This document shows, piece by piece, positions 4,810 through 53,176 of a stretch of DNA of 64,000 nucleotides. The notes under the pieces were generated by a model. The model was not told the origin of the DNA. It did not search any database and saw only the letters and a program-made list of their open reading frames with translations. The stretch comes from a virus, in IMG/VR virus record IMGVR_UViG_3300029904_000004, positions 1 through 64,000 of that record; one strand, given 5' to 3'. The position numbers were made by a program, and so were the translations under genes. Positions within the stretch are counted from its first letter, which is position 1. Each line of letters begins with the position of its first letter.

Positions 4810-4843
4810 AACTGCTCATATTGCTAACTTATGATGATTAAGT

Positions 4844-15860: not shown

Positions 15861-16014
15861 CGCAGTTGCGTCGTGAAAGAAAAAAGCGACATGTACAATT
15901 AGTCATTGATGATGTCAAAGATACAATTAGTAGACGTATTAATAATATCAAAGACAAAATCAGCAACTGCTTAGACAATATGAGTAATTAACTAACCACA
16001 AAATCATTATCAAA

Positions 16015-16425
16015 ATGAAAAAATTAAGTACAATGCTTTGCTGTATATGCTTAGCAGTTTTCGGTGCTGTAGTGGGATTAAATAATAAAAGTCCCGCAGT
16101 AACAGCAAATGCGGCACCTGTGTTTGCAGGTGTTCCGTTAGACCTTAGAATGCCTAAAATGCATTACGACACAATATATGTGTCAAAAGACACCGTAATG
16201 CCGTGCAATAAGCGTCACTATCCAAAAGTTAAGGTTGTAAGGAAACCTTATGCAGTACACGATACTTTGTATGTACCTGTACTGAAAACAATTGTCCTGA
16301 GGGTTCGTGAGGAGATTTCCCAGAGTTATACGAAGTATGGTGTTGTGCATGATACTATACAAACTCAAAAAACGTTAGAATCTCCCGACAGTGTGAGTGT
16401 GACCCCTGTCGAGTATATTCATTAA
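16015..16425 (+). CDS. secreted or membrane-anchored protein (136 aa)
   Basis: ORF track. N-terminal signal-like MKKLSTMLCCICLAVFGAVVG. Conserved leader. Confidence 0.65.
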   Translation: MKKLSTMLCCICLAVFGAVVGLNNKSPAVTANAAPVFAGVPLDLRMPKMHYDTIYVSKDTVMPCNKRHYPKVKVVRKPYAVHDTLYVPVLKTIVLRVREEISQSYTKYGVVHDTIQTQKTLESPDSVSVTPVEYIH

Positions 16426-30848: not shown

Positions 30849-33800
30849 TTATCTTAAACTTTCACGCAATTCGCGTTGAAATTCATTTTTTTCTCTATTG
30901 ATTTCTCTCATCTCTCTTCGTATGTCAGGATCTACATATTTTTTAGTCTTTTTAGATTTTTCATCGTTTTTACCAAATATTTGATTTCTAAACGGCATAA
31001 TACTCTTATAATATTTGGTATTTTGATTTATCACATAAGATCCACCTCCTCCGAGAGATTTAGGCATATTCGTATACCAGTTATGTAATCCGACAAAATT
31101 CAATACGTTGAACGTGTGGTAAAATAATCGGCTATGTCCTTTATAATTTCCATTTTTTACAGGATCGTCCAATTTATGATTACTTAATTCTAATGCCTCC
31201 ATTATCATATCTATAGCATGCGCATTTTTATCAAACGACGACGTTGCTGAAGTTATAGATCTGATTAAATCATTCAATGTACTCGCACTATAAAATGTAG
31301 CTCTATCAATAGTCAAACGTATTAAATTATTCTACATCATGTACAACAAGAAATAATCGTCATCGTCAGGATCTTTGTCTTTTAATAAAGAATTCATGAT
31401 AGAATCTATTAAAACTAATAATGCTATAGTTCCAACTTCCATCATAACACGATTCAATGCATAAATTTCATGTCTATTTATGTTATTCTGACCCATTATT
31501 TCTGAAGTTTGGTCAGAATATGTTCCATGTTTAATTGATGCAGAAACGTATTTTAAATACGGCCATATTTTCAAAATTGCAGCAAATGCAGATCTGTATA
31601 TTCCGTTTTCTATTCTGCCTGTTTGAAAATTAAATCCTCCTGTAGGACTATTTTTCTTTACATCGCGTAGATTTTCAGGATCTATAGGACTATTATACAC
31701 AACACCTGTGTTAGGATCTACTTCTCCGACAAAATCTTGATAGTTCTAAAACCTTTCCCACAAACCTACAATTAAGAAGTTACGCATCATAGTTATGAAC
31801 TACGTCCACACATTAGTTTGAGCCCACGTTCTTTCCGCATCCTGTATGATTCCTGTATAAGCGGCAGATCTGGATCTTATCTGTTGTCCTACTTTATACA
31901 AATCTTTTTCAGATATTTCTGTATCATCTTTAGGAACAAATCTTCCATTTTTGTCTCGTTTCATCCGATCGTACATATTCACAGAATGTTTCCACATATA
32001 AATTGCATCTTTATACGTCATTCCTTTATTTTGAGCTTTTTGTAAAAAGGCTTGTTTATTCATCCATTCATGCGTACCATCTTCGTTTACATATTTACGG
32101 TATGCACGCATTGTGGCGGTCATGTTAAGAGCGTTTATGGTATAATCTCCTATAGTAAATCCTTTCATAAGAATTCCGTCAGATACGAATCTCCTTAAAG
32201 CACTTTGGTCTGTATTTTTAAATGTGTCATATATTCCTCTAGATAGACCAAAATACTACATGCCTGCAGTTATTTTACTATACGTATTAACTCTACCCAA
32301 ACTGGCTAAAGCTCTAAATGAATTTATCGTCAGTCGACTCATTGCGAAAAACAAATCTTTTTTATTAATGTATCTTCCGGTGCTTGCGTCTATTCCTAAA
32401 GATACCGCTGTATCCCAAAAAGACACTACCGCAGATCTTAAATTTAATCCCAACATACCTAAACTACTAATCGCTCTAATTTGACCTAGATGTTTTAACC
32501 ATGTTGGAGTATCTGCAACAATATATCTTCGAACCCAATCAAAATATTTCCATTTTTTATCATCGCCGTAATTTTTACCGAGCCCTGTAGATAAATTTTC
32601 GTAATACTGTCTATCCATCATTCCTTCTAATACCGAAATCTAATTAGAACCAGTACCTTCTGCATACGATTTGGCTGCATCTATAATAGCCTATACTTTA
32701 GGTGCCGATTTAGATTTCACTTTATAGTTTTCAGCCATTTTCCAAAAAAGAACAACGTTGCCGATTATATTGGTACTTATATATTCCGGTTTTTCCAACA
32801 TTTGTAGATATCTTACTGGAATATTTTTAATATCAGAACCGTCTGGACGTTTGGTATAATTATACTGTACAAGATCAACATCCGATTCGTTTGGCATAAA
32901 CCATCTATTGAACCAATATGCTAAATTTTTACCAAATCTGGAAAAGAATTTTCGCATCATTATATTAAAAAACCTACTTTCGCCAACTTGTACAAGTCTC
33001 CCATCGTACGGTTTTGAAAACGGTATCTTTTTAAAACTTTCACCCATCAATTCGATACATCTATTCAAAAGAATACGGTTTTCTTCAGATTCGTTTACAA
33101 ATTCGTCATACCTTTTATCGTGATACAAAGCATCTTTTATTTGTACAGCCTCCTGATTAGAAGTGTCAAAATCTTCATTTACATATTCTTTAGAACTATT
33201 TTTAAAATCTATTTTTGAAAACATTCTAATAGGGGTGCGTATTATGCTATTATGTACTTTACCTTCGCTACGGAACTGTTTCAATTGTTTAGGATACGGT
33301 GTTGTAAATATGGACAATGGGTCGTCGTAAGCATAAAACGTTGATTTTATTTTTTCATCTATTTCAGATTCCGATAAACCTTTAGTACGTAAAAATTTAA
33401 TATACCCGTACTTCATTTCTTCAAATTTACTACCTATTAAGTCGGGAACAAGGTCGTACTGACTGTTACTGCCTGCAAGATATATATAATCAAAAATATC
33501 ACTAAACTTAATGTCGTTTTCGTCATACGAATACGTCTCGCGTATAGTTCCTGATAATTTTTTTATTTCAGAATCTAATCGAGCAAGTTCTTTAAAAAAT
33601 TCCAAACTCTTTATTTCACCGGTATTTTCATCATATAATTTATCCCAGTTTATTTGATAAAATTCTTCTCCTCGAACATACGATAATAGTTTAGAGCGTC
33701 TTTTTTTCAGGATATTTAATTCTTTTTCCATATCCTCCATTGAAGAAGGTGTGGGTTTTTTTGTTATTTTTGACCACAATAACGGATTTATTACACGTTT

Positions 33801-36095
33801 TGTAAACATCCTGTCAAATTCTTTTTTGTTTCTGGCTTTCTCTCTTGCTTTTTCATACATGTCCATATCGGACACATATTGTATTTTACCAGCTATGTGG
33901 GCATTCCAATTAGTAAGCTCTTTCGCCGCTTTTCCGTATTCATCTTCGTCGTCTTTAATTGTTCCGTCGGGATTATAAGGATTAGACAATTCCGAATATT
34001 CTTCCTAATATCTATGTAAGTCGTCTAGTTGAGCATCGGTTAACAAATCAGGTCTAAATTCTCCGTCAACTGTACCAGCTTTAAGTACATCGTTTATCTT
34101 CGACTATACTTCGTTTAATAATCTTAAAGTAGAAGGAGATAAATAATCTATTCGCTCTAAATAATATTTTTCTGTAAATCTACGATTAGCGTGATGGCAT
34201 ATCCAACTCTCCATATCACGAAAATAGCCTTTACATATATCGTCAAGCCTTTCGTCTTCTGGGAATACAGGGTCTCCGAATTGGTTTATTTCGAGATTAA
34301 ATTCGCCATTTTCGTCTCTGAAAATATATCGCCCATTTTCGTCTTTCATGTTTGCGATACGTTCTACAACACCTCCTCTAGTGTATAACAATTTTGCTCT
34401 ATAGTCTTCTAAATCTTGATAATACTGTCCTTTATTGATCGGCTCTATGAAATAACCTGTGGTAAGACCTCTTCTGTCTAATGCAGCCATGCGTTTTTGA
34501 TAGTTTCTCTATGTAAATCTGCCTTTCCACTTAGAAGCTTTTATAGCATTTCTATATAATTTATTTAGCTCCAAACCAACTTGCATTGCTGCTGTATGTA
34601 CTTCATTCTGATCTTTATCTATAATTTCCTGAACAAGACGTATTAAAATACTTTTAGATCTACTACCTATGCCTACATACCGCTCGAACGCTTTAACGTC
34701 TCCGTAATCGAATTGATCCTTTAACCATTTTATAGTGTTTACACGAAGACGCTCCCTCTTATCGCCGTCTATTTCTGCAGAATCTAACTCATCTATAGCT
34801 TCATTTATATACTATTCAACTTTCGTACGTAAAGAATCAATATACATGTTTTGTAGAGTAGATACTCGTTGTATAATATTACTGTCTCTCAATAGATCTT
34901 TTAATGCTTGTACAGATTCCTGTATATTTTCTAAAAGCTACTGCTCTTCAGACGAAGGGTTTTGAGGTAAGAAGTCTAAGTTGATATTATCCAACATACT
35001 TTGCATTTCAGATATAATCTTAAAATAATATCCTACAACGTCAGTATGAGTATACGTCAATTGGTCAAAATCTAACTCCTCTGAAAACTATGCGTTGCTG
35101 GCATTAAGTAATTCTCCGTTATTGTCTGCGTATATTTTTCTTCCTGTTCTTGGATCGGTGTTATAAAATACTCTTCGATAATTATTAGCTTTTGCATTAG
35201 CTACCAATGATATACAATTAGTGATTTCCTAATTTGCACGAGATATAAAGTCAGAGAATAGGTCTAATTTCTACAATAACTCCATACAATCATTTCCGCT
35301 CTATACCGCCTCTGATATTCTTGTATTGTGCATTTTAACATTACGAACAGCTTCTTGATTTTCTACAATTTGATTCGAATCTACGTGCTAATTGTGTTTA
35401 GACTTCGATGACTTTTGTTTACTTATAGTACCCTCTATGATTTTTGTAGTAATTTTATCAATCTCTTCTTGAGTAGCAGTTTTTCTACCTTTAGATATAA
35501 AAGTAATAAATTTTTTATTTCTCCTGGCAGCACGTTTAGCTCTTCTGTATGCGTTACGAATTCTTTCCGTAACTCTAGTAGGATTTTCTACGTCTTTCAA
35601 AGCCTCCCTTTCGTTACGTATATTTTCACGCTCAACAGTGTCCGATTCAGGAGTTTCTTTTTCTCTGTCATCCAACTCGGCATTGACTATTTCTATTGTA
35701 GACTTTCCTTCAGAAGCTGCTTTATACGCTAATACAGAATTTATATAATCCTTTTCCTCTTGTGTAAATGCGTATTCTTCGTTTTCTAGTACAGATATTA
35801 CATCCTGGGCTAAATATTCTCCGTTTTCATCTACACCCGAGCTGTCTTCAACCTGATCTTTAAAACGCTGTAAATACGTTTTTCCTTTCTACTGAAGGGC
35901 TTTCTACCTATTACCTGAGTAATAGTCCATAAGGTCTTTAAAAAGCCTTGAATTGGCCCCATTTGGGGCCTTATCCAAAGCGTATCCATTGTTTCTGTCC
36001 CATAGGAGATAAGCCATATCTTCTCCTACAGCTTGTACAAGTTCTTCAAATTCTTGTTTTACTTGTTTATTACTAAAATTCGGACAAAATATCAT
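30849..36095 (-). CDS. large late/virion protein (~1,748 aa) readable only with TAG as sense
   Basis: Eight track fragments (30849..31316 through 35904..36095) share one frame. Every internal break is TAG and the gaps I walked have no TAA or TGA. The true stop is TAA at 30849. The ATG at 36093-36095 overlaps the upstream TGA (ATGA). One spot near 34440-34500 could not be reconciled with the track (see rejected items). Confidence 0.7.
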
Positions 36096-39000
36096 GATTT
36101 ACCTCCTCTGTTACAATGTTTATTAATTTGTTCCGCTTGTTTCTTTTCTTCAGGTGTTGTTAAATCTTGTATGTTTCCGGACAGGGAAGCAGTAGGTTTC
36201 CCAGAATTATCTGTTAATACACGTGGTTGGTTATTTCCAACGTCTACACGAGTGATTTTTCTATCTACAATGTTTCCATTATCGTCGTAATACCTAAAGC
36301 TGTTAGAGTCTGATTGACCGGCATAACAATATGCACAGCTACTGAAACACTTCTTTTCGTTCATTCTAAACATATCCTGATGTGCGCCATAACACATACA
36401 ATCAGGTCTAGAAGTATCTCGCTTATATGTACCGTCTTCAGAAGTAACATCTACACCTGTAAGCCTTTCGATAATCAATGGGTCGAGACACGCAGAAGCT
36501 TTCAGCCCTTGTACAGTAAACGAACAAGTTTCTATTTCTATTTCCGGATCTTTATTCAATTCTCGTAAAATATCACCTACTTGATCTACATACTCGAATT
36601 TAGGAGTAAAGTGTATCTTCCCGATACTACTAGCAGTTACAAGTCGTATTCTCTCAGCAAAGGCTTCGCTTATCATTCTACCCCACCAAGCTTTTATGTT
36701 AGCTTTAGCTTCAGGATGTTTTTCCTTGAAGTTATTCATGAATTGATTACTTATATTCACATCGTCTTGTGAAATTATTCCGTAATACTCTTCCCAGTTA
36801 TACGATTGTCCAGCTTCAGCAAGTGCTGTATTGATACCGCTCACAACTTTTCTCGTGCTAGATGTACCTTCGAGGTAACCGTAAGATTGTACTAACGAAG
36901 TTACAAATTTACGGATACCCATAGACTTACAACGAGCTACAATCTTCTTAATATCCTCCATATTTGTATATCCTACAAGTATAGGGTCTAATCTAACTGT
37001 AGTTGTACGAGGATCCAAATCTCCAGCTTGTATCAATTGTTCAATCCTATCTAACAAGTCGTCGTATTTTAATACACCTTTTTCTAATGGAGTATCTCCT
37101 AGACCTGTAATACTAAAGGAAACCATTGGTGCAACTTTATATTGCTTACAAGCTCTTAATATGTTTTGTATAGGTAGACCGTCATGTTTGGTCCATAGTT
37201 CCATCGCATAATATCTACGAGTATCTCCGAACGGAATTTTATCATTCTCTTCGAGACTTTTGATTATTTCGTTAGCGAAGAACGCAGGATCTGTAAATCT
37301 ACTAACAGATTTTATCATAAGTTTACCAGTCTTGTCGAACACCTGTTTTAATTTAGATATTTCCTCTTCTGTAAACACAGGCTTCACCGTATCTAAGACA
37401 TCTTTAAATGTTAAACCTTTCTTGACAGTTTTTACAGTATCTTGTATCTCAGATGCAACATTAGGATCGTCTTTACCCCCGAGTATTTCTTCAAGATCTT
37501 CCATCTACTGTCTTGCTATAGAAATCTAATCTTTATTATTTATCAAATATCCTATCACCGTAGCGTGACTCGGTCTATTCAATTCTTTATAATAAAGGAT
37601 TGGGGTATTTAATGGAGATTGCAGTATTTTATTTATTATAGCCTGTCTAAATTCTTCAGTAGCCTTCGTATTATCATAATTGTCTCCATACAATAACCAG
37701 CGGTAAAATTGGTCAACAGTACCCGCACCTCTCACAGATTCTGAGAACGGATTTCCGATAATTCCCTATTCTACCGCTTCGGGAGTGTTGTAATTATTAA
37801 AGTTCACTCTATACGCAACTATGCCGTCAGGATTGTTCTTTTGCCATTCTTTATAGTTAGATCGTAAGTTCTAATCTATATATACTCCGTATGTTGCAGT
37901 AAGTATTGTATTCGATGTTGGATCAAATCTTGCAGTATTGCTTTTAGATAATACCAAACCGTATCCGTCATAACCTTCTTGCGTATTCTTTATTACCTCG
38001 TATCGCACTCCTAATTCGTTCTATATTTTTTCTTGTAACCATTGCGCAAACCTTAAAGGAAGTGCCGAACGTCTTGTAGCCATTTGTTTAGGAACAATCA
38101 GTTTAGAGTATTCTGAATTTTCATATTTGGATCTAATATACGCAAAAGCCCGACTATTTGCATTAACAAACGCCTTAAAATCAGAATCTGTATCTTCAAA
38201 TTGACCTTCGTATTGTACGAAATCCCCAGATTCGTTTTGTTGATATTTCTTAACAACTATTCCTTCTGCGTTTTCCGTAAGCACGTTGTTAGAATCGGTA
38301 CGTATTACTGCCTGATTTGTGCCGTTCGCTGACGATACATTTAACTGTAAACGATCTGTTTGAGGAATAGATTCATTTTCCGTATCAAACCCATATATTT
38401 TAGACTGTACTTGCAGATTTTCTGTATAAAGATAGAAATAATCTCTATTTTCTTGCGGTTCGTTTTTATGATATCCTGTAGACGTTTCTACAGTATATAT
38501 ACCAAAACGACCTACGGGAGTGTATACGTCTTTATTTCTACCAACATGTAAAGTCGCAAGTTCTTCAGCACTTATTCCTATAGGATTCTGGAACTTACGC
38601 AATAAAACAGAGCCGTTCAAAATATTTCCGTCTTCGTCGAATTTTACGAAATTCTTTAAGATATCGTCTATTCTGGATATATATTGTTGTGCTGTTGTAA
38701 CTGGTATATTTTCCCTTTCGTATATATGTTTATAAACGTCGTCTCGCTCAATACTGTAGAATTGGTATACTTGAGAACCTATTTTAGTAGAGAATCCTTT
38801 AGGTGTAACCAATCCGTACACAGGTCTCGCAGCACCATTTTTAGTAGCATACGTTGCGATGTTGGTATATAATAAGAATGAGTCTGCACTATTCCTGTTG
38901 GTTCCATTTCTTCTTAATTTTATATATCTCGGGAATGTACCTGTATTTTCTATTCTACGTATATCGTATGTGGGGAATAATATAGCGTATTCACTAGCAT

Positions 39001-42000
39001 CTACAATTTCTCCATTTTCGTCAAGAATGTTGAAATGTCTAGATGTTCCTACAAATCTGTTTACTGATAGACCATCATATGTTGTCGTATATTTATCTGT
39101 ATACGGAATAATTGTGTCGTCGTATGCAAAATTCATAAAGAATTCATCAATATCGAATGTAAATACACCATCTGTACGAGATTCGTCAGAATTAACAATC
39201 TCAACATCACCGGACATAAACTGCTGGTGAGCTTGTCGTATATACTGGTCGTATCCAAAATCTCTTCTCCAGCTTATCGGTACATATTTAAAGAATTTAG
39301 TAAACCCTCTACTATCTGCAGAAGTCATAAATGCGTATATTGCAAGATCGTTAGCTAACTTTCTAATAGCAAGACATTCTTTTGTTAGATTTCCGTCGTC
39401 ATCTGTAACAGTAAATTCTAACAATTGCTGCCATGCGTCAATATAATTATTCATTCCTTCTTGAGAATCGTCCTGTGTATTGTCGAGAGTAATAAAATCG
39501 TAATGTTCGTTTCCAAATTTAGTTAAATACGGCAATCTTCTCAGATTATTGAGTAAGGGGTTAATTATAACTCCGTTAGAAACAAGTTGTTCATATTTAC
39601 CAGATGTATCTTTTAATAACCACTGTTTCAATCCTTCTATCCTTGAAGCAAGTGTACGATTCCCATAAATCATATTTCTCCAATCATCCTCTGTAAAATT
39701 ATTATCACGCAAAGCTTGATTCATACATACTTGTTTTATATACGAAAGTAATGAATTTGCAACTTTTGTATGAGCGGATTCGCTATCGTCGTTAATGTAT
39801 CTACATATATAATCGGTAAGATTACTAAATGATGGAGTAGCTTGTATAGCAATCTGTCCCATAATAAACTAAAGTGTAGTACAACCTATTCTGGTCTTTT
39901 TGTCTATAAACGAATCTTTCACCATATTGTGTAAGGTCTTTTGGTCGAACATGGGGTTTTCAAGCAGTTTGCTATATTTTTTGATATACGACAGTTGTTG
40001 CTGAACCGTGTTTCCTTGTTTCTTGGTATCTATTTTAGTACATTGTACCAGATCATTCAGCGCATTGGCATAAGGAGCAAAAGCATCTTTAGTAATATAC
40101 AATATTTGTTGAATATCTTTCGGTGAGTACATTTTACCATCAATGTCGTATATTTTTTCAGTACTCATATTAGATACCGTAAGACCTTTATTAGGATCTA
40201 TTTTAGACCGTTTATTAACAAGAATATCTTCCAATATGGACCTTGTACCATCTATGAATTTAGGATCGAATATTTTTTCGATTATTTCAAAATAGTTTTT
40301 CTAAACACCCTTTTTAACATTGTCTTTTGATTTAGCATACCGATCCAAACTGTTATCTCCAAATGTATTATGAATATATTCTTGTGTTTTTTTCTATATT
40401 CTTATATATATTGGAGTTGCTGCATCTTCAACAATATTACCAGACTCTCTCAGTTCTACCTATGCTAATTCTCTAATTACAGGTTGATTTAAGAAATACA
40501 ACGCCTAATTTCCAAACCCTGTACGTAATAACAAGTTTATTAAGTTGTACGTAGCTCCGTTTATATTTAATCCTGTCACATACGGATCTTTCGCAATGTC
40601 TACGTGACCATTGATTAAAGCACTGATCCACGATAGTATAGCGTTGCCTTCGTCGTCTACAATGTTACCGAGATTATTTTTATGAAGGAACGTTAATATT
40701 CTACTTGGATTGTGGGCGAATTTTATACCGTATATTTGGCATAATATTTGATTGTTGTTGTTAAGGGCAAACGGACCTATTCCAACCTTTCCTGTAGCAA
40801 ACTGCTGCATCGTTTTCACCTAATTTGACAACTGTTCGTATTGATACGGTTCTACCTCTTTTGCGTAAGCTCCTTGTATTTTACTTACAATACTTGTCAC
40901 TAAAGAAGTATCGTTATCAATAGATCTGTACTTCAAGTGGTCATAACGACGATCTTTAAGTAAATTCAGATACGCTCGCAGCATTTCGTTTGCTAAATTC
41001 TATTTGCCATCCTTCAGATTTATTGTGGTGACTTTTGTACGAGTCTTCTCTTTACCGTTCTTGTCGATATATTTTTCTATAATCTTGTCGTAATATAAAG
41101 AAGACAACATTAATTTATCGATGTCGAAATCGGAACCGGTCAGTTTAGTAAATTCTTTTGGAAGTATTATAGTATCTCTGACTACAGGTATTACGTCTAC
41201 AAATCTTAATGCGGAAATAGATGCTAGCGCCTAAGTAGGAATACGATATCCCATAGTTTGGGCAGAAGCATTATGCCATTCTGTTTCCCCAGTTTTTACA
41301 CCTGAAATAATATCGTTGTCGATAAGCCATTGTTTTGCCTTATTAAAATTGTAAAATATTCCAGGTGGGATTATGTCTTTAAAATAATCTATACTTATCA
41401 CGGCGTCCATAGAACCTTCTTCGTTTATCATCTACAAAGGTTTTCCTCCGTTGAGTTCGTATTTAGAATCCTTATCAGATATAACCTTCATCGGAGAATC
41501 CATACCAAATACAGACCTTTGATAAAACGCATTTCCTTTGAATGTTATGTCTATCGCATTCTTATTGATGACCGAATTTATTATTGTTTCCAGCCACTGT
41601 ACATTGGATACGGTATTTATGTCTACCGGGAATCGTACTGTTTCAGGTATAATATTTCCATCGTTATCTGTTTCGTACGTACAGGTTAATGCATCCAGTA
41701 TATTTTTATCCGCATTTCTATTTTTAAGTTCATTAATCGCAAATTTTGAAAATTTTACAAGGTCTATTTGACCGTTTTTGTCTGTAAACTATTCCATTAC
41801 TCGGTTGTACCCGATGTCTGCCATTTCATTCATTCGGCTCATTATGTAGCTCACATATTCTGAACCGCTGACCGATTTAATTACAATCTTTCCATCTTCT
41901 ACTACAGGCAAAGAATATATCTGTTCAGGTCGTATTGCACTCAATGCTATTTTCATAGCCTGTGTACCTGCCTGCATTTCTTCATCTTCTCTCGGGTCAG

Positions 42001-45000
42001 TATTAAGCTGTCTACGAATGAATTTATATTTCTACTTATATGTATGACCTGCAAATGTAAACTGTGCAACTTCTTCATCAGTCATGTCTGGGTTAAATCG
42101 TTGCGCCGCCTAAGATCCAGATTTTACTGCTGAATCAAACATCACCATATCTACAGGATTTTTAGGATCTGTCATTTTATTGTACAGATTTCTAGTAAAT
42201 CCGTAAGAAATTCCTTTAAACAATGGGAACAATGCGAACTTGTCGTAGAAGTGTACAGGGATTCCATTCTACATTCTGTATCCGAACGCAGAGTATTTTT
42301 GAGTACTTATCAAAGCGTCGAAGATAAGCTGATAATCTTCTACAGAATTTAAATATCCCTTGTCTCCACGAAGCCTATCAAAAGCAGCTTTGATTTTACT
42401 ATTGTAAGCTCCTCGCATTTTCAACAAGTTTTCAGCCATTGTGTCGCTAATATATGCAGTACCATCAGCAACGTTTATTTTAGACAAGTAGGAGTCCGCT
42501 TCAATTTCTATTTTAGCGTCTATTATATTGAGTAGACCGCGGCTTTTCAAATACTCCTGCATCATGTCTTCTGAAATTTCTCCACTGTCTACTTTTTCGC
42601 AGAGTTCACGTGATGTTAGTTCGACATCGTGTCCGGGGAGTGTGAAAGACCTTTCACCTAGGATTATATCATTTATAAATGCGTCCGCATACTCACATTT
42701 TCTGAAAGACTGTTTTAATGTATCATATACAGATGAGCCTATCTCCCAATCTTTTATCTCCGCACAAATGTATTCTGAATCTACGTTAGGCAAATCCTCT
42801 CTGTTATTTTCTCCGGTAGATCCGAGACCTCCGTAACGTTTCGTCTCATCGACACCGTACTGTACAAGTTTACCATCGGAATATTGTGTTTTAAAGAACT
42901 ACGGCATACCTGTAAACACTCTACGAGTTTCTTCCATAGACATTATAGATTTACACATAGTATCGTATACCATAGCAACTACCGCCATAGATTCGCACGC
43001 GCTATATCCGTATTTATCTGCGATACGAGAATATTTAGTTTTCAACGCATCGATTTTATCCTGATCCATCAATTTATTCTTATACTTAAAATACGGATGT
43101 GGATCTGAAGCGGGTCTTGAAACTTCTTCAATAATTCCGTTTTCGACGAGGAAATTTAATTCGTCGTTCAGTCTGTGTTGTAATATTTTAGCCACATAAT
43201 AACGTCTTTTTTCTTGAGATACATGATCTCCGAAGAACATATCGTACGCCTTATTAAAACTATTTATTACACCACCGTCTTTTGAATTGTCTTTAAAATT
43301 AAATGATACATAATTACCGTTCTCGTCATATATACCCATCAGACTAAAGAATCTGGCACCGTTTATATTTTCTGTATGATAATTTTTTACTTTGTCATTT
43401 TCTGATATAGGTGTCGCAGTATTAGTTTCCCCATACAATCCGAGGTCGTTGATAGTTTTCTTTACGTTTTCGAACTCACATTCAAAATATTCCAAAAACT
43501 GATCCAATATCGGATTTGCAGAGTATCCTTCAGAATTGTCAGAATTCTAAAATATTATATCTCCAGTACGCCTGTTAAATAAAGGCAGAATACCTATGTC
43601 CTAACTATTCCAGTTTAGTCCTGGCAGCTAAAATCCTCCCAGCACCATATAAGTAGATTTGTCAGAAAGAGTTGGAGATATTATCAGCCCTTGTTGGAGC
43701 ATTGTCATTTTACTGATATAATCTTCAGAAGTTGTAGACGAAATATATTTTGTTCCACCTTCTCTTTTATTTTGTAATTTAACACCGCTCGCTGTATATA
43801 CTACTACTTTATTATGTTTCGGGTTGAATTCTGGATCAGTCAATGATTTTACAATTATCGATCCTTTTCCATTGTGCATTACATATGATACTTCAGACAA
43901 ATCTTTTATTATGGAATCTTCTTTCATATTACCGTTTTTATCAAACGTATTATTTAAATTATCCACAATATCCGAATAAGTATGGTTTTGAGCAAACGTA
44001 TACTACTTGGTATTTTCTGCACCCAATGTCATCAATTCTACATTGCGTTGTCGATATGCACCATATTGGGACGCCAACAATCTAATAAACCCGTTTGTAG
44101 AATACATATATGCACCAGAAATAGTATCTCCAACTTTATTTCGTAATTTTGGGGTATCTTGTAAAAATAAATAGACATTGCCTTGTTCAACAGCAGATTG
44201 CATTTTATCGAGCAGCATTCCATCTCTGACAATAGTACCTAATCCTCCCGAAGTATTTCCGTCTCCGTATTGAATTAACTCGACAAATTGATTCCACAGA
44301 TTTGTAGAACTAAGATCCATATTTTGTAAAGTATAAATTAAATACGGTTTGTCTATACCTATACCTATTTCGTTCATTGTTTGTATAAATATAGAATATA
44401 TTTGATCAGCATCTTCGGGTTTAGTCACGTCATATTTTTTACCGTCTACAGTCAATATCTGCATATAACTTTGCGACAGTATTTCATTTAAAATCTTTTT
44501 AGCCTTTTTAAATCCTTCAAAACTACTATTTAATTGTGGCGTTTTTCCAGATTTAAATAATTGCGAATACGAAGATCTCAGATTATCGAACCATTGTATA
44601 GGATATTGTTGTACGGACTGATCTGCATTTGTAGACTTAAATTCATACGTATATGTTCCTTGTTTAACATTCCCGTCTTGATCCGTATAAGGACGTACAT
44701 ATACGAAATTAAAACTCAAATGTTGTGATTTTATAGCTTGGAATAATTGAGTTGTCAACGACTCCATATCTGCGTTTGTAACATATACAGCGCCCGGAAT
44801 CAAATCTCCTTTTTTGAAAATTATGTTCCCATCTTTATCTTTTATATCAATTGCAGCATACACCCTCTTCGGATACAACTCGTCATGAGTAGGATTTTTT
44901 AAATCGGAGATATAATATTTCGGGTTCAATCGTTTGTTTTTATACATCACTACCGGAATATTGTCATATTCTTTAGCATTTGTATACCTTACATATGACT

Positions 45001-48000
45001 GCCATCTACAGTTAAATAATATTTTTGCAATATTTTCAAACATGTAGTCGTTTTCTCCAAGCTTGTGTAATCTGTTGTATAAATCATCAACACTTTCAAC
45101 ATCGCTTAAGGCAGACAACAATCTCTAATGAACCGATTTAAAATCTAAGAATTGTACAGTTCCTAAAGAATTTCTACCTATAGGTACTAACGTTCGTTTT
45201 TTGTTTCCGTTTTTATCCACAACCTCTTTACCAGACTTGTCGACTACGTATATAGATTTCACCGCTCCGGAATTTACATCTTCTTGAGTAGCATACCTTA
45301 ATGCAGGTCTTGTAGACAATATAAATTTTACTTGTGATGTGACATCTTCAGAACGAGAATGCGTATAAAATTCATCGGAGTGTCCTGTAATATCGTTCGC
45401 AACTGCTCCAGATTCTCCTCCTTCAATATTACTTATAGTTTGTTCCTCTTTTTCTCTGGTTGTAATTATACCTATAGAACGAAGTTTGTCAAATAATAGC
45501 TATTGTGTAGCTTCATAATTGTCGAATAACTCTCTAAATATCAAAGCGTTTCTGTAAGTTAAATTACTTATCACACCTTGTTCGTATTTTTCCTTCAACG
45601 CCTTTTCTGTGTTTAAATTGTCGTACATCAACGTGAGCTTCAAATACGTCTTAGCAAATCGACTTTCAAACTTACCATCTTTTTGAGTCAGATTGGTCAA
45701 ATACTGTTTGCTTAAATTTAAATTTTTAGCATTGGACCCCAATTGATTCAAACCTTCACACCTAACGATTTCGTACAACAGCGTGTTTATAGCATCATCT
45801 AATTGCGTAGACGTGAAAATATGTTTGAATTCGACAGTCTTGTCTCCAGACTATACTTTCATAGTTAATCCGCCAGGGAATCTACGCTTGAAATTTTCGA
45901 TCTGAGAGGGTTTTATTACGTTGTTGGAGTATTTACCCCAATCCACTTGTACAAACAGCCTAGCGAGCTTTAAATCGCTTGTAGCAGCATATGCTTTAAC
46001 CCAGCTCCACATCTTAGCGAAGAAGGCTCCTATTTTATTATTTGGATGGAATGTATGTCTACTATAATTGAAGAACTTATCTGCCAAATCCTCAGCTATA
46101 TCTCGTTCAGATTTATCTCCGTATTTATTACGATAATATGAATATAAATCTTTGCGTTCAGATTCGTCCATTAACAACTCTACAGCAGCGTGGAATGCCT
46201 CGTGGAAATCTGTACCGTTTTCGGCATTTTCTGCAAGAGCTATACTTGTAGCTTTACACATTCCGACAACATCCCAATCTCGTAAAGTATCTTCAAATCT
46301 ATCGACAAACTCTACCGGAATTGAATCTCCCGTTATTCTACGAATAGTACGTTCTGCTTTTTTACGATTCATTGGTCGTACTTTCTTACCTTTACGCTGC
46401 TTATGAAACAATGATGGACCCAATATATCATTATTAAAATCGTCTTGATTTGTAGGAAGTATCTTCAAATCCTCGTCCGATATAATCAAGCCGGCTGGAA
46501 CAGAATCTTCGGGAGTACCTTCTGGAGTCAATGGCTTATCTTCTGGTTCTGGGTTAGGATCTGGTTTTGGTTTGTTGTCGACTTCTTCTACATCTGTAGC
46601 GTATATAAATGCGTCAGTAACGCCTTCGTATCGTGTACTAAACCATCCATGACTCATCATCCAGTGATATCCGAATTTACCAATATCTTCTCGATCGAAA
46701 ACCAACGATTCTGAGAATTTAAGTTGTTTCTCGTTAGGATGTTCTTCAAACCATTTTGCAATATATGTAAACGGATGTTCTAGATCGGAAGTATTCTTTC
46801 TATCAAGTTTAGATCTTAAAATTCTAACATTGTTAGAGTACAGATATAATTTGTCAACCAAATACTTCTTTAGATTTATAAGATCGGTGTCGTTGTTTAA
46901 AGAAAACATTCTTTCTTCACCTTGTATCTTAATGTATACACGAGTATTGTCAACATCTGTCGTTTGTGGTTTAGGATTATTTAACTATTCGTCTTTATAC
47001 GCATATCTAAAAACAAACGTAGAGCCTGGTATTTCCTCTGTAGCACGTCCAAATCTTACGAGCATTTCTAATATTTGTCCATAAGTCAACGGAGATTGAA
47101 CACCGTTTACCGTTGGACGTTTTCTGCTATCGTTCTACAGACATTCTATTATCATGTCTGCGTCACTTTCCGTAATTCGTTTACCGTCCAAATATATCGG
47201 CACCTTTTGACCAGGATTTTCTTTATAACCGAGACTATGTAAAATCATAACTCGTCCAGATTCAAGACGTTTACTTTTATCGTTTATACCACTTTTATTC
47301 ACGTATATAGTTCGGTTATTTCCCAAGCGTGAACTTTGAGTTATTCCTTTAAGGTTTCCATCCTAATCAACAACTCCAATCTGATCTCCAAATTTCCCGT
47401 TATATAAACCGTCAACTTTAGTTTTGTCTTGTTCAGATTCGCTGAGTCCGAACTGTTTCAATACAGAGTGAGGTTCTTTTCCAAATATAATTCTACCGTT
47501 ACTTCTACTTAAACCTACTAATTTAACTGTAACATTCGTTCCTTTTTCCTTAATGATTGATTCTAATTTAATAGCGATAGGATGATCTATGCTCGCACTA
47601 TTATACTATTTTCCGTCAGCATCTACTTTGGATAATTGCAATCTTATACCTTTTACGGAATTTCCAGATTTACCTCTGAGGTCTAAAACTTCCCCATTGT
47701 ATCTTATTTCGTCAAATGTCAGATAGTCTGGTCGTGTACGTCTAAAATGATGCAGGTTTACAACAAATACAGCTTTTTCTAAAAAATCGGGTTGAGTGGA
47801 CCACTCCATCAACTTCTACTTCGATTTTTGATCTGCGTCCTAGAAACCAATCTTGTTTGACGGTTTTGATTCCTCATCCAACGGTTTGTTTTTTAAGTTA
47901 TCCTTAGCCTGTTCGTTCTATGCAGATGCAGCATCTTGTAGTAATTGTGTAGACTAATCTAATATATTAGTAAGACTTCTAAAAAGATTCTGAGCATCTG

Positions 48001-51000
48001 ATTTGTCATATATATCGAGTATTTGTTTTTTGCGACGTATATTATCTAATGTAGTAATTATTTTCTTTGCACGTCGAGCAATATTCTGATTCTAATTATC
48101 TCGAAGTGCAGAAACCTATTGAAATATAGAATCTGCTCTAGAAAGCGAATCGGATAGTTGTTGTACTATTGCAGAAGTTTCTTCCCCGATACGAGATAGT
48201 TGTTCTTTGTTTTCTATACGTTCAGAATAAATGCCGTCGTTCTTCTATAATAAAATCTCTTGCGGAGAATCTATTTGTAAAATTTGGCCTAATCCTACAT
48301 TTTTTTGATGCAAAGAATCACGCATATCTAATTCTGTATAGAATCCGAGCAATCTTATATCTTCTACAGGTTTACCGACAGCATTAGAAATTAAACCTGA
48401 ATACATATTCAATTGGTTAGTATAACCTTCTCGTTGAGTAAAATTTGCTCTATGATACTTTTTATCTAACGCTTCTATTTTTCCGTTTTGTTCGCTATAT
48501 GAATCCGTAGAAGTTTTAAAGTCTACAATATGTATTCCACCATTCTTGTCTACAAGAATCATATCGGTTTCGCCAGCAATACCGTCTGCATACCAAAGAT
48601 ATCGATTTGATAATATAGTATATCCTTTATCTTCGTATTCTTTCTTTTTTGCCAATATGTTTTGCTTGTGAGATTCGAATACTTCTTCAGACATCATGAA
48701 TGACGGATCGTACTAAACATCTTCTCCTAAAAACAACCTACGATTAATGTCGTCAATTATTGTTCCAGAGATTGCTGAAGCTTTTGGCAACCTTATATAA
48801 AACTTACTATTTATATTTGTATTGGAATTTTCACCGACTTTCACTCCTTCCGTAATCATTTTCATGGAATCAAATATTCTTAGAACATGATTGTACGCTT
48901 CGGAATCTTTAAGTAAATCACAATATTTAAGATAGCCGTCTAGATTTATATAATGTTCGCCACGTTGAGTTTCGTCAGTAAATTGCTCGTCTATCTGTTG
49001 ATTGTATCGCTGTTGTAATTCACGTATTCGTCGATGCAATTCTGTAATATTTCCGCTATTCCTAGCTTCGTTCAAATACTCGTGTACATATACATTCGGC
49101 TCGTTCGGGAACATGTTCTGAAGTACACTATGTACTCTGGAATATCTGTGAATATTTCCGTCTTCGTCTTCGATAAAATAATCGTATCCAGTACGTAATT
49201 CGTAATGTAGTTTGGGGTTATTATCTGCGTTAAATTTATTTATTACTTGTATCACCCTACCCGCTTGTTCAGAATTATCTGATTCGTTTTCCGTGTGTTG
49301 TGTAGGATTTGGGTTTGAATAAAATCCAGCATAATTATACTTAACTTTACCTATTTGTTTGCGATTAGATCCTTTTCTTAAATAATATTTACCCCCTGAT
49401 TCTACAACATCGTAACCATCACGAAGATACGATTCCAATTCTAGTGCGTCTGATAACGATATTCTTCGGTTTTCATGTTTTCCTGCACGATTATTGAATT
49501 CTACAACCCTTCTCTCAGTCTATCTGTTGTTTTCTAACTCTTCTACAGTAAGTGTAGAAAGAGAAATTTCTCCTTTCTCCAAATCAACAATCGGTCGAGA
49601 TAACCGCATCTACTCGAGAGACGCATTATTAATTGTAGTGGTAAACTATTCCGCATGTTCGTTCTATTCAATATCGTAAACGTCGTCGTATATCGGTGCT
49701 TCTTTTTGCAATTGTTCGTTTTTAGCAAAACGATCTATTTCATCCTACGTGTTACGATATTGATCAAATTTATCTTCGGTGAACTCTTTTATCAATCGTT
49801 CGTATTCGCTTGCCTCTTCGGACGTAAGATCTTGATGATTATCTATTTTATTTTTCAATACAGAATATACAATATAATCCAGTCGTATCTTACGAAGATT
49901 ATTTAATTTTTCGGCATGCTGTTTCTTTTTTTCTTGGTAATCGTACCACTCTTCTTTATCAAACGGCAATGGCTAATTGTCCACAACACCGTCATTGTAT
50001 AAATGCTTTTCGGCAATTCCAGAAGGATTTATTACAACAACAGCAAGATTTCCATTACGATCTTCGTATACATTATTATCGTTAGTAATAACCGCATCCT
50101 GTACGTCATATTTTTTTATAGTGTCGTCAATGTATTTAGACTCCACTTCTTGGCGTAATCTCTCGTCATCTTTTTTAACCTCTTTGTAATGGTTTACATG
50201 CTTTTTAGCAGTTCGAGTATCGTTCTATAATTTTTCATAGATGTTTGTATCAATATCCAACTGCACTTCGTATAGAGACTACTGTCTCATACTTTCTACT
50301 AATTCATCGTTGATCGACAATCCGTTTTCGGCGAAAGCTTTATCTACGTCTTCTTTAGTTTCGATGTTTAATTTTGTAGCTTTATTAAACTGATCTATTT
50401 TTCTCTAAACTTGTTTTGATAACAATTTACTGCCTCGAACTTTTTCTTCAGGTTTGTTTTTTTCTACAACATCTAAGTAGTCTCGTACATCTATTAAACT
50501 TTTAAGATGATATAAATTTTTTAAAACGTTTTGTTTTTTAACTAAATCCTCTTCAGTTTCATTGGGATTTTGTTGTTTTAATTTTTCAAGCTCTCCCTGC
50601 TGTAATTTTAGAGTTTCTTCTAACGACTGTTTATATTCATTTATATCGCCTCGTACTCTATTTTTATGTAATGCTAATAAAGAAGCATAATAGTCCAAGT
50701 CTTCTTTTTTAAATCCTGCTTTCTTTGCAAATTCTTGAAAATGTTTATTGTTATATATAATATTTATATCGTCAAACAATTCAACCTCTTCGTCGATCAT
50801 TTTTGAATCAATTCCGACAGGATCACCTTCTTGTTCGAAGTTCTAATTTATACGGTCATTGATTCGTTTATACTGCAACAACTTATCTCTGGTAGCAGAT
50901 CCTCGTCCTTTTCTAATCTATTTGGCATATCTCGCTCCTTTTTCGATATTCGAATCGTTTTCCATCTTACTTGCCAAAAGATTATTTGCTACTGCATGAT

Positions 51001-53176
51001 TTAAACGAATTTCTTTCACCGTTCCTGTAGTAACTTGAGCTGAGCTAACAACTCCTCCTTGTGTCCACGCTCCGAGAATACCTCCGGACATATTATTGTG
51101 TATATCTCTTTCTCGTTCCGTAGCTGTTTCTGGGTCGTATAACAAGTAATCTGTCCAAAGTCTGGGGCCCGAAAATATAGTATTCAACCACTGATCCTAA
51201 GCATAGAAATAATTATCGTCACGTTCATCAATTCTTTGATACTGTTGTTCCTATTGCAATCCCTCTTCTATTGCCTCAGAATACGCACTTAATGCAGAAC
51301 GTTTTGCTAAGCTTTTTATTCCTTTCCTAACTGCTTTTAAATCAGCTTTTCCTTGTAAGATTTTTTTCGGAAGCATTGCTGCGTAATCTGCAACATTTGA
51401 TGCGTGCTTTAAAGATTTCTCTGCGAGTTTTTTAACCGTTGCAGTACCTATGTTGTCTATAGTTCTTCCTATTTTTTGTGTCAGCGGTATCATTTTTTGC
51501 ACACCTTTGCTATCTTTTATTACGGTGACAAAACCTTTCCCCATTGACTTTACATCGCCTTTAAACTATTGTAATTTTGTAGCCCTCGATATAGACCCCA
51601 TAGGAAGAACTTCTATTGCGGTGTCGAATGTAGCATCTATTGTGTTTACGCCTTGCCCCTACATAAACTGTTTTAACGAACCTACAGATGCATTTATTAT
51701 AGTATTACGTATTTTGTAGTTTTTAGGAACATATTCCCCCATCTAATATGCAAGATACAAATCTTCTGCAGTAGCATTTGGGTTTTTCAATTGTTCTCTA
51801 CCGTCTCTTAAAAATTCTTCAAACTGCCCGTTAGCAGTAAGTTCAGCAGTCATTATGTCTTTAGTGGCTTGAGCAACATTTGCAAAATTTTCATCTGCAC
51901 CGGAAGATAAATTTAATCCGTATGTTCCCGCGACTAATGTTTTACCCAATACGTCTTTGGCTATAGAGCCTCCTCCTGTGAGATATGCCGACAGTAGACC
52001 TAATGCCATAGACCCGATTTGTTTTTGAGGAGCAGACATAGACGATCCTATTAGCCCTGGTGTTTGGAATAACCACTTTTTAGGATTAAATACAGATAAG
52101 TCCTGAGCTATTTGTTCTTGGTTCTCAAAGTAATCAGATACTTCATAACCAGAATATCTTTCCAAGTCTCTACGATCATCTTCAATGTCCTACTTCCATT
52201 TATTGCGCATCTGTGTTGATCGGTTCTGATATTTTTTATAAATATCTGTTAGGTTTTTATAATACCGATCAGCAGTCGTGGCATCTCTATTGGCAAGGGC
52301 TTTTTGCATCTTTGTTAAATTCTCATTAAAGCCTCTTAATGAATTTCCAAGACCTGTTCCAAAATCCAAATCTACTTCTGCAAGACCACTTTGCATTTGA
52401 GAAAACGCTCCGGTGAATCCGTTCAACGATTCGTACTGTTTTATTTTGTCGAACATAGACTCGTAATGATTTTTTTTCGAATTCAACTCGTTTGAACGTT
52501 TTCTTAGATTGTCCATTTCCAAACTTTCGTCATCAGTCAATCCGGCCCCTGTAGTATATTTATCTATCAAATGATTCAATCTGTCGTTAACAGATATCAA
52601 CTCTTGCGCAGTATAGACATAATCGTACATCGCTTCAGGACTAATATATCTATCCATTTGATCCGCAATACTCATTTTACCCAAAGATGTGTCTATTTGA
52701 GTCTAATTCTTATTAGTCATCATCTTTGTGTACGCATCAGAAAAATAATCTTTTTTACGATTATCCCATTGTTCTACACCCAATATTTTTCTAAAAATGT
52801 TTGTTGCAGGAACTGTTAAATTAGAAGCTATCTAAAAACCTTTTACTATAGAATTCCACCAATAATTATCGTCTGATTCGGATTCTTTTTGTTGTTTTTT
52901 ATTATTGTTTGTGTTAGGTTGTTGGGCTGCCAATCTGTTTAAATGATCTTGATATTTTTTTCTAGTTTCCGGGCCAATAAACTTATTTATATCAAAATCC
53001 TCTTTTTCTGTATCTGAAGGAGACACTTGCTATATCTAATCCTACCTGTTCTGTTTAGATTGCTCTATCTCCTAACGTCTCTATTCTTTTATATAATCTT
53101 CGTATTGCTGATTATATAATTCCTGATTACTACTCGCAATATCTCCAAAATATTGCGCCTACTTTTTTATGTCCAT
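36092..53176 (-). CDS. giant multidomain virion protein (~5,694 aa, TAG sense) containing an RNA-polymerase-like DFDID motif
   Basis: 25 track fragments from 36092..37504 to 52832..53026 all have end coordinate mod 3 = 1 and all end in TAG. I walked every gap and found ~63 in-frame TAG and no TAA or TGA. ATG at 53174-53176 is preceded by an in-frame TAA at 53192. The stop is TGA at 36092. Confidence 0.8.

What the first reader, a model, noticed from the sequence alone, without database searches (positions are those of the whole stretch)
36092..53176. A single ~5,694-codon ORF (17.1 kb) fusing polymerase, protease-like, nuclease-like and Fe-S-like modules
Twenty-five consecutive track fragments share one frame. 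I checked every gap by hand: only TAG interrupts, about 63 times.
- **Boundaries:** the frame opens at ATG 53174-53176, preceded by an in-frame TAA at 53192, and closes at TGA 36092.
- **Modules:** it contains a DFDID motif (41117-41131), HEAFH (46190-46204), a D...DFK nuclease-like module (48245-49438) and a DUF1848-like Cys cluster (36092-37504).

In the described crAss-like phages as I recall them, the virion RNA polymerase and cargo proteins are large but are separate genes. A 5.7-k-residue fusion would be among the largest phage proteins, or a polyprotein cut by its own HExxH module.
Basis: partly seen in the sequence, partly recalled or inferred. Interest (0 to 1): 0.85.

Follow-up and report, generated by a model that had tools for sequence, protein, structure and literature searches.

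The report
Giant crAss-phage virion RNA polymerase fusion gene
The 17-kb reading frame is real: it is the giant virion RNA-polymerase fusion protein of a crAss-like gut phage that reads TAG as glutamine, but equally large fused versions are already annotated and discussed for this phage family, so it is a new example of a known thing.

Summary
Window 53176..36092 (minus strand) holds 5,694 codons with 63 in-frame TAG, no TAA, and TGA only at the end. Chance would give this with P of about 1e-151. A 96%-identical independent scaffold keeps the same frame.

The product is about 652 kDa. It joins a ΦcrAss001 gp47-like part (PD-(D/E)XK nuclease-like plus conserved HExxH...E) to a gp50/phi14:2 gp66-like virion RNA polymerase (DFDID). 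A profile of the polymerase core hits PDB 6VR4 at E=7e-119. A variable C-terminal extension ends in a DUF1848 β/α-barrel with a Cys cluster (Pfam E=6e-14).

The novelty claim does not hold:
- RefSeq Suoliviridae genomes already annotate syntenic, collinear, TAG-recoded single CDSs of 5,801 and 6,386 aa.
- An exhaustive search retrieved 28 cluster representatives of 5,000-6,939 aa.

Most likely mechanism: late translation with TAG read as Gln, packaging as capsid cargo, ejection into the host, and early-gene transcription. Proteolytic processing is plausible but untested.

Verdict: a new, divergent member of a known kind, of low interest. The barely studied DUF1848 module and the swappable C-terminal modules are the only mildly new aspects.

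The parts
36092..53176 (-). Giant ORF: 5,694 codons + TGA, 63 in-frame TAG read as Gln; predicted product 652 kDa
49529..52753 (-). N-terminal region (aa ~142-1216). No recognised domain. Collinear with the N-terminal parts of other giant crAss proteins at 20-33% identity.
   Evidence: Pfam found nothing
48191..49228 (-). PD-(D/E)XK nuclease-like module (aa 1317-1662; motif ETDMILVD...IHIVDFK). Homologous to aa 1599-1894 of the stand-alone gp47-like protein of Steigviridae.
   Evidence: Pfam PDDEXK_1 E=0.0055, below cut-off; PHROG 298 exonuclease E=6.4e-6; tblastn/blastp to Kehishuvirus 'RNA-polymerase subunit' E=3e-17
46481..46582 (-). Pro/Glu-rich linker (aa 2199-2232) just upstream of the HExxH module
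   Evidence: read directly from the sequence
45767..46279 (-). Zincin-like HExxH...E module (aa ~2300-2470). HEAFH lies at 46190-46204 and the conserved Glu2362 at 46091-46093.
   Evidence: H, E, H and the downstream E are invariant in 6 orthologues from two families and at least 90% conserved in 35 diverse homologues. There are 484 relatives in the exhaustive search. No Pfam or PDB profile hit reaches significance.
38537..45079 (-). Virion RNA polymerase part (aa ~2700-4880), homologous to the RNAP region of Suoliviridae giant CDSs and to ΦcrAss001 gp50-like / phi14:2 gp66
40442..42550 (-). RNAP catalytic core used for the profile (aa 3543-4245), with the DFDID Mg-binding motif at 41117-41131
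   Evidence: Profile A1 hits PDB 6VR4 (phi14:2 gp66) at E=7.4e-119, chain residues 957-2115, and aligns TGSDFDIDK
37523..37891 (-). Variable 123-aa module (aa 5096-5218). Absent by in-frame deletion from the 96%-identical relative; present at 52% identity in giant protein P0103.
   Evidence: no Pfam family
36233..37447 (-). DUF1848 module (aa ~5244-5648): β/α-barrel with C-terminal Cys cluster, including CX3CX2C (CFSSCAYC) at 36326-36349
   Evidence: Pfam PF08902 E=6.1e-14, 52.9 bits against a 30.5 cut-off; 47.8% identical to cr272_1 aa 5588-5998; 20 homologues; conserved Cys motifs; AF2 model pLDDT 74.8; only generic TIM-barrel fold matches
30849..36095 (-). Downstream large ORF (1,748 aa, 18 in-frame TAG). 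Its ATG overlaps the giant ORF's TGA (ATGA). Syntenic with cr272_1 gp22, cr130_1 gp80 and cr114_1 gp020.
53185..54843 (-). Upstream ORF (552 aa), homologous to cr272_1 gp24 and cr130_1 gp78. It sits at the position of cargo protein C2 in ΦcrAss001-like genomes. Its stop lies 8 nt before the giant ORF's ATG.

Best explanation
This is the late-expressed 'transcription block' gene of a crAss-like phage (order Crassvirales). Its nearest annotated relatives are in Suoliviridae/Oafivirinae.

Shown here:
- The phage reads TAG as glutamine in its late, minus-strand gene block.
- The gene encodes one 5,694-residue (652 kDa) chain.
- That chain fuses a ΦcrAss001 gp47-like part to a gp50/phi14:2 gp66-like part. 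The gp47-like part carries a PD-(D/E)XK-like nuclease module and a conserved HExxH...E zincin-like module. The gp66-like part is a two-barrel virion RNA polymerase with the DFDID catalytic motif.
- A variable C-terminal extension follows, ending in a DUF1848 β/α-barrel with a Cys cluster.

Inferred from experiments on phi14:2 and ΦcrAss001:
- The protein is made late and packed into the capsid as cargo.
- It is squeezed partly unfolded through the tail into the Bacteroidota host ahead of or with the DNA.
- It refolds and transcribes the early, plus-strand, standard-code genes without host RNA polymerase.

Inferred with less confidence:
- The chain is cut into at least a gp47-like piece and an RNAP piece, possibly by its own HExxH module, before packaging or after ejection.
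- The C-terminal modules act as co-injected accessory enzymes on nucleic acids or host defences.
For: Open frame with only TAG interruptions, P of about 1e-151 by chance.

TAG recoding:
- It is confined to the minus-strand block, at a uniform ~1-2 TAG per 100 codons, and no late gene ends in TAG.
- TAG codons exchange with CAG/CAA in a 96% relative.
- They sit opposite Gln or TAG in 29% of homologue positions.

Independent assembly keeps the frame, with a third-position substitution bias across aa 1753-5100, which includes the fusion junction.

RNAP: profile against PDB 6VR4 gives E=7.4e-119, including TGSDFDIDK.

Fusion map: aa 1317-1643 and 2312-2458 match the Kehishuvirus gp47-like protein, and aa 3566-4036 match the gp50-like protein.

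Known kind:
- Syntenic, collinear, TAG-recoded single CDSs of 6,386 and 5,801 aa are annotated in RefSeq.
- 28 representatives of at least 5,000 aa were retrieved. The 14 best-matching of the large proteins were inspected and each has one HExxH and one DFDxD in the same order.

DUF1848: Pfam hit above the cut-off.

No excess of promoter-like or terminator-like sites inside the ORF.

Literature:
- gp47, gp49 and gp50 detected in ΦcrAss001 virions by mass spectrometry (PMC10172136).
- RNAP gene 'up to ~6000 aa', and TAG read as Gln confirmed by metaproteomics in a Suoliviridae phage (PMC10136315).
- A PDDEXK domain in large transcription-block proteins (PMC7886860).
Against: - There are no expression, packaging or activity data for this phage. 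Everything downstream of the sequence is by homology at 23-39% identity.
- No suppressor tRNA(CUA) is present in the 64-kb window, so the readthrough agent is not identified. The rest of the genome is not visible.
- The HExxH module could not be tied to any curated metallopeptidase family by Pfam or PDB profile searches, and its single-sequence model was unusable. Protease activity, and self-processing in particular, is therefore conjecture.
- The same module occurs in stand-alone gp47-like proteins, so it did not evolve to process the fusion.
- The DUF1848 fold search gave only generic TIM-barrel matches at TM ~0.2.
Confidence: 0.87

Rival explanations
1. The span is really several genes in one frame. 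Some TAG codons act as true stops, depending on context or suppressor level, and each is followed by an internal start, so no 652-kDa chain is ever made.
For: Steigviridae encode the gp47-like and gp50-like parts as separate genes. No suppressor tRNA is found in the window. Two plus-strand ORFs do end in TAG, so TAG can be a stop in this genome's early genes. cr131_1 is annotated as 4,372 + 242 + 1,401 aa.
Against: - TAG density in the giant ORF (1.11 per 100 codons) matches every other late gene, and no late gene terminates with TAG.
- TAG positions align with Gln or TAG in homologues.
- No TAG is positioned consistently at the gp47-like/gp50-like junction.
- Coding-type substitution bias runs uninterrupted across the junction.
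- 28 independent representatives of at least 5,000 aa were retrieved; the 14 best matches inspected keep the same order in one chain.
- The cr131_1 split falls exactly inside the catalytic DFDID motif (giant aa 4016/4017) around a small inserted ORF. That is the signature of a mobile insertion, not of a gene boundary.
Confidence: 0.05
2. The giant frame is an assembly artefact or chimera that joins separate genes.
For: The window is presumably from a metagenome assembly.
Against: An independent ENA scaffold is collinear at 93-96% identity from window 47920 to 30156. Its only differences are a 100-N scaffold gap, an in-frame 123-codon indel, small gaps at the 3' end of the giant ORF and in the downstream ORF, and a 678-nt insertion in the downstream ORF. 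Full-length collinearity with annotated RefSeq CDSs and with many database giants is also seen. Flanking genes are syntenic.
Confidence: 0.02
3. The same gene and the same delivery route, but the chain is not cleaved. It is packaged and ejected as one 652-kDa multi-enzyme polypeptide, as N4 vRNAP is ejected whole. The HExxH module would then act on host targets (peptidoglycan or proteins) and not on the phage protein itself.
For: N4 vRNAP (~3,500 aa) also carries a metallopeptidase-type domain. The polyvalent-protein paper discusses autoprocessing, post-injection processing and action on host proteins as alternatives (PMC5512222, section 8). The HExxH module is equally conserved in stand-alone gp47-like proteins, which need no release from an RNAP. 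Drobysheva et al. list peptidoglycan digestion as an alternative role.
Against: Other families function with separate chains, so separate pieces are sufficient. Threading 5,694 residues through a channel narrower than 50 Å (PMC10172136) is harder for a single chain. Nothing here discriminates directly.
Confidence: 0.35

Closest known systems
YP_010113476.1 (crAssphage cr272_1, Buhlduvirus porcinus, 6,386 aa) and YP_010113266.1 (cr130_1, Chuhaivirus simiae, 5,801 aa); Suoliviridae, Oafivirinae
   Same: Same genomic position, between a C2-like gene and a second ~2,000-aa ORF, with the replication genes divergent beyond that. Single CDSs with 37 and 74 in-frame TAG. Collinear N-terminal, HExxH and RNAP segments. 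cr272_1 also shares the C-terminal DUF1848 part at 47.8% identity.
   Different: Only 24-34% identity outside DUF1848, and no nucleotide-level match to any INPHARED phage record. cr130_1 gave no match to the DUF1848 region. The RefSeq product names ('hypothetical protein', 'DprA-like') do not mention the RNAP.
phi14:2 gp66 virion RNA polymerase (PDB 6VR4; Drobysheva et al.)
   Same: Homologous over about 1,100 profile positions, including the DFDID catalytic motif and flanking strictly conserved residues. gp66 is virion-packaged and transcribes early genes.
   Different: gp66 is a stand-alone 2,180-aa protein. Here the homologous part is embedded at aa ~2700-4880 of a 5,694-aa chain. No direct single-sequence match was detectable.
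ΦcrAss001 / Kehishuvirus gp47, gp49 and gp50 RNAP-associated cargo proteins (Steigviridae)
   Same: The gp47-like protein carries the same PD-(D/E)XK and HExxH modules in the same order, and the gp50-like protein carries the DxDxD region. All three proteins were detected in virions (PMC10172136).
   Different: They are three separate genes, on two strands, read with the standard code. No DUF1848 match to them was found.
Polyvalent proteins of phages and conjugative elements (Iyer et al. 2017), including N4 vRNAP
   Same: Very large, multi-enzyme, co-injected proteins that often include a zincin-like metallopeptidase and nucleic-acid enzymes. Relatives of this ORF carry ART-PolyVal, SF1 helicase and YbiA/NADAR modules.
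   Different: The N4 polymerase is a T7-like single-subunit enzyme, not a two-barrel one. Neither crAss-like phages nor DUF1848 appear in that paper's main text.

Membership tests
crAss-like virion RNA polymerase (phi14:2 gp66 / ΦcrAss001 gp50 family) | DFDxD catalytic motif with Ile or Val at the fourth position | tested here: met
   DFDID at aa 4016-4020 (41117-41131), inside the conserved TGSDFDIDK
crAss-like virion RNA polymerase (phi14:2 gp66 / ΦcrAss001 gp50 family) | Sequence homology to the solved enzyme across the catalytic region | tested here: met
   Profile of the window core plus 67 homologues against 6VR4: E=7.4e-119, chain residues 957-2115. That range covers the Connector, DFDID, bridge helix and trigger loop positions given by Drobysheva et al.
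crAss-like virion RNA polymerase (phi14:2 gp66 / ΦcrAss001 gp50 family) | Two double-psi beta-barrels in one chain (fold level) | not tested
This is inferred only from the alignment to 6VR4.
crAss-like virion RNA polymerase (phi14:2 gp66 / ΦcrAss001 gp50 family) | [quoted passage not shown] | not testable with these tools
   Needs virion proteomics and enzymology
Suoliviridae-type fused transcription-block giant protein | gp47-like and gp50-like parts in one CDS at the syntenic position | tested here: met
Code-15 type late-gene recoding (TAG read as Gln) | In-frame TAG confined to one gene block and behaving as Gln in alignments | tested here: met
Code-15 type late-gene recoding (TAG read as Gln) | Phage-encoded suppressor tRNA(CUA) | tested here: not met
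   ARAGORN and Rfam find only tRNA-Lys(ttt) and tRNA-Leu(taa) in the 64-kb window. The remainder of the genome is not available.
Zincin-like metallopeptidase | HExxH plus a conserved downstream third ligand | tested here: met
   H2325, E2326, H2329 and E2362 are invariant in 6 orthologues and at least 90% conserved in 35 homologues
Zincin-like metallopeptidase | Profile or fold similarity to a recognised metallopeptidase family | tested here: inconclusive
   No Pfam hit. PDB profile hits only FtsH/YME1 at the motif, E=0.2-3.8. The AF2 single-sequence model had pLDDT 39.7. The literature assigns 'Zincin-like' by more sensitive methods (10.1101/2020.03.07.982082).
PD-(D/E)XK nuclease | D...(D/E)xK core motif and a family profile match | tested here: inconclusive
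   The motif ETDMILVD...IVDFK is present. Pfam PDDEXK_1 scores 17.1 bits, below the 22-bit cut-off. PHROG 298 exonuclease gives E=6.4e-6.
DUF1848 (PF08902) | Profile score above the Pfam gathering threshold, with the C-terminal Cys cluster | tested here: met
   52.9 bits against 30.5. The Cys motifs SACLDP, RPxCxCYG and CxSSCAYCYA are conserved.
Radical SAM superfamily | CX3CX2C cluster motif within a partial TIM-barrel similar to solved radical SAM enzymes | tested here: inconclusive
   CFSSCAYC is present, but at the C-terminal end. The fold search returns generic TIM barrels at TM ~0.2, with NifB only at rank 36.

The most novel reading that the evidence does not exclude
The C-terminal tail of these giant virion proteins may be a swappable effector cassette. 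Even 96%-identical phages differ by whole in-frame modules. Relatives exchange DUF1848, SF1 helicase, YbiA/NADAR and ART-PolyVal domains at that position. On this reading the DUF1848 module would be an uncharacterised Fe-S enzyme, possibly radical-SAM-like. It would be injected with the polymerase to modify or repair nucleic acid, or to disarm a host defence, at the first moment of infection.
Probability: 0.25. Interest if true: 0.5.

Novelty: new member of a known kind. Interest (0 to 1): 0.2.

Why it matters
It matters mainly as a calibration result. A striking 17-kb, 63-TAG reading frame turns out to be the expected hallmark gene of TAG-recoding Suoliviridae-like crAss phages, so it should not be flagged as a new class.

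Three points have residual value:
- It adds a divergent member (at most ~39% identity to any cluster representative found) to a family whose polymerases evolve very fast.
- It shows that standard-code gene callers shatter this gene into dozens of fragments in public protein databases.
- It highlights an unstudied Fe-S-type DUF1848 module, and module-level turnover, at the C-terminus of an injected protein. Both are testable in cultured crassviruses.

Tried and rejected
- Megablast of the 17 kb against 50,697 phage records gave no match. Relatives were only reachable at protein level.
- Single-sequence phmmer of the RNAP core, the HExxH segment and the C-terminus against PDB gave nothing significant. 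Only the profile reached 6VR4.
- A word-index homologue search with the HExxH segment gave nothing. The exhaustive HMMER search was needed.
- The single-sequence AF2 model of the HExxH segment had pLDDT 39.7, so it was discarded and not fold-searched.
- HExxH profiles with 6 and with 35 sequences against PDB and Pfam found no significant metallopeptidase hit.
- The fold search of the DUF1848 model gave only generic TIM barrels.
- NCBIfam found nothing on six TAG-free segments, and PHROGs found nothing on seven of nine.
- An apparent frame break in the 96% relative looked like a gene boundary but is a 100-N scaffold gap.
- My guess that aa 5096-5218 is DUF4326-like was not supported.
- Internal promoter-like and terminator-like sites are no more frequent than in shuffles, and the scan does not model Bacteroidota promoters.
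- The Yutin 2018 paper could not be retrieved. Its content is cited only through Drobysheva et al.
Full report
**1. Observation**

The reverse complement of window 36092-53176 starts with ATG and ends with TGA. In frame it contains 63 TAG, no TAA and no other TGA. The two other frames of the same strand carry 307 and 471 TAA+TGA. From base composition, a TAA/TGA-free run of 5,694 codons has a probability of about 1e-151. The upstream gene stops at 53185-53187, 8 nt before the ATG. The terminal TGA overlaps the next gene's ATG as ATGA at 36092-36095. The product is 5,694 aa and 652 kDa.

**2. Genetic code context**

With the standard code, the plus-strand genes (1-30770) are intact. The minus-strand block (30849-64000) forms long ORFs only if TAG is sense. 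Every minus-strand gene has ~0.7-2 TAG per 100 codons, and none ends in TAG. Two plus-strand ORFs do end in TAG.

Two tests support TAG being read as Gln:
- In an independent ENA scaffold (L007, ~96% nt identity), the window's three variable TAG codons correspond to CAG or CAA.
- Across five Suoliviridae homologues, the residue opposite the window's TAG codons is most often Gln (21%) or TAG (8%). That enrichment is at least as strong as opposite ordinary Gln codons.

[quoted passage not shown] No suppressor tRNA lies in the window, but the rest of the genome is not visible.

**3. Not an artefact and not several genes**

L007 is collinear with the window from 47920 to 30156. The apparent frame break in L007 is a 100-N scaffold gap. 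On both sides of the gap the frame has only TAG interruptions. Substitutions fall 290/68/50 on codon positions 3/1/2, with 275 synonymous and 108 non-synonymous codon changes. This stretch covers aa 1753-5100 and so crosses the fusion junction. Promoter-like and terminator-like sites inside the ORF are no more frequent than in shuffled sequence.

**4. What it encodes**

- **RNA polymerase.** A profile of aa 3543-4245 with 67 metagenomic fragments hits PDB 6VR4, the virion RNA polymerase gp66 of crAss-like phage phi14:2. The hit has E=7.4e-119 over chain residues 957-2115 and aligns TGSDFDIDK. Single-sequence searches fail, as expected for these fast-evolving enzymes (PMC7886860).
- **gp47-like part.** Blast against the Steigviridae phage Kehishuvirus maps aa 1317-1643 and 2312-2458 onto the stand-alone gp47-like 'RNA-polymerase subunit' (aa 1599-1894 and 2144-2282). 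It maps aa 3566-4036 onto the gp50-like protein. The first segment contains a PD-(D/E)XK-like core (ETDMILVD...IVDFK). Pfam gives E=0.0055, below the cut-off, and PHROG 298 exonuclease gives E=6.4e-6.
- **HExxH module.** The second segment contains HEAFH. The residues H, E, H and a Glu 33 residues after the second His are invariant in six orthologues and at least 90% conserved in 35 diverse homologues. I could not connect this module to a curated metallopeptidase family, and its model was unusable. The 'Zincin-like' label therefore rests on motif conservation and on the published assignment.
- **DUF1848 module.** The last ~450 aa match Pfam DUF1848 above threshold. The model (pLDDT 74.8) is a β/α barrel followed by conserved Cys motifs, including CX3CX2C. 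No solved structure is closely similar.

**5. Comparison with what is known**

tblastn finds 74 crAss-like records. The nearest annotated genomes are cr272_1 and cr130_1 (Suoliviridae, Oafivirinae). At the syntenic position they carry single annotated CDSs of 6,386 aa (37 in-frame TAG) and 5,801 aa (74 TAG). These are collinear with the window ORF, and the flanking genes are homologous. cr114_1 (Uncouvirinae) has a 4,272-aa version.

cr131_1 is annotated as 4,372 + 242 + 1,401 aa. However, the break lies exactly between giant aa 4016 and 4017, inside the DFDID motif, around a small inserted ORF. That points to a mobile insertion and not a gene boundary. Steigviridae keep the parts as three genes.

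An exhaustive HMMER search with the HExxH segment finds 484 cluster representatives. Of the best 150, 28 are 5,000-6,939 aa long. Among the 14 best-matching large proteins, most are collinear with the window ORF over most of its length, and each has one HExxH and one DFDxD in the same order.

The literature states the same:
[quoted passage not shown] - A PDDEXK domain occurs in the large transcription proteins (PMC7886860).

**6. Mechanism**

Shown here: one recoded ORF, the modular homology, and the family context.

Inferred from phi14:2 and ΦcrAss001 experiments: late synthesis; storage in the capsid cargo zone; ejection in a partly unfolded state through a channel narrower than 50 Å; refolding; and transcription of early genes (10.1101/2020.03.07.982082; PMC10172136).

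Conjectural: whether the chain is cut, and by what. I put roughly even odds on processing versus an intact chain. The HExxH module is just as conserved where gp47 is already a separate protein, so it was not invented to process the fusion.

**7. What is mildly new**

The phage itself is divergent. It has no nucleotide match in the phage collection. It shares 29-39% identity over the long collinear segment with the best giant homologues, and one 96% relative exists as an ENA scaffold.

The C-terminal extension is modular. The 96% relative lacks aa 5096-5218 by an in-frame deletion, while that module recurs in P0103. DUF1848-containing relatives carry SF1-helicase and YbiA/NADAR domains next to it, and ART-PolyVal occurs nearby. 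This fits the 'polyvalent protein' concept (PMC5512222), whose main text mentions neither crAss phages nor DUF1848. DUF1848 is almost absent from the searchable literature.

**8. Verdict**

The feature is the known giant virion-RNAP fusion of Suoliviridae-type crAss-like phages, and the polyprotein/HExxH idea is already published. It is a new member of a known kind, with low interest.

Noticed in passing
window 11778-12019 (+): Rfam scores a permuted tmRNA (RF04321) at 66.8 bits against a gathering score of 47, E=1e-10. ARAGORN independently calls a permuted tmRNA at 11748-12110 with tag peptide GNVNNIVDYTHVA*. It lies in the standard-code early/middle half of a TAG-recoding phage.
   Followed up: partly
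window 37523-37891 (-), versus L007 ~9879/9862: A 123-codon in-frame module of the giant ORF (aa 5096-5218) is missing from the ~96%-identical ENA relative. It is present at 52% identity in an unrelated giant homologue (P0103). So whole modules turn over at the C-terminus between near-identical phages.
   Followed up: partly
L007 11485-12162, versus window 35831-35844: The close relative has a 678-nt insertion in the downstream large ORF. It encodes a segment with an HD-like motif (LHDIAKPFHGG) that is absent from the window.
   Followed up: no
L005 (NC_055902.1 cr131_1) 15828-16623: The RNAP gene of cr131_1 is split exactly at the catalytic DFDID motif by a 242-aa ORF annotated as similar to a Salmonella phage gene product. 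It is probably an intron or homing-endonuclease insertion, yet it is annotated as three separate hypothetical proteins.
   Followed up: partly
window 1-30770 (+) versus 30849-64000 (-): Two of 26 plus-strand ORFs end in TAG, whereas no minus-strand gene does and all of them contain in-frame TAG. So TAG appears to be a stop in early genes and sense in late genes of the same genome.
   Followed up: partly
RefSeq records NC_055901.1, NC_055899.1, NC_055872.1, NC_055900.1 and others: The giant RNAP-containing CDSs are named after minor or spurious partial matches: 'DprA-like DNA recombination-mediator protein', 'DNA helicase', 'exonuclease V', 'nuclear pore complex protein-like protein'. These names hide that they are the virion RNA polymerase.
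   Followed up: no
L001, L002, L004, L005, L006: downstream large ORFs: In the relatives, the second large ORF after the giant gene carries its own HExxH motif (for example HELLHA). The window's downstream ORF (30849-36095) has no HExxH at all.
   Followed up: no
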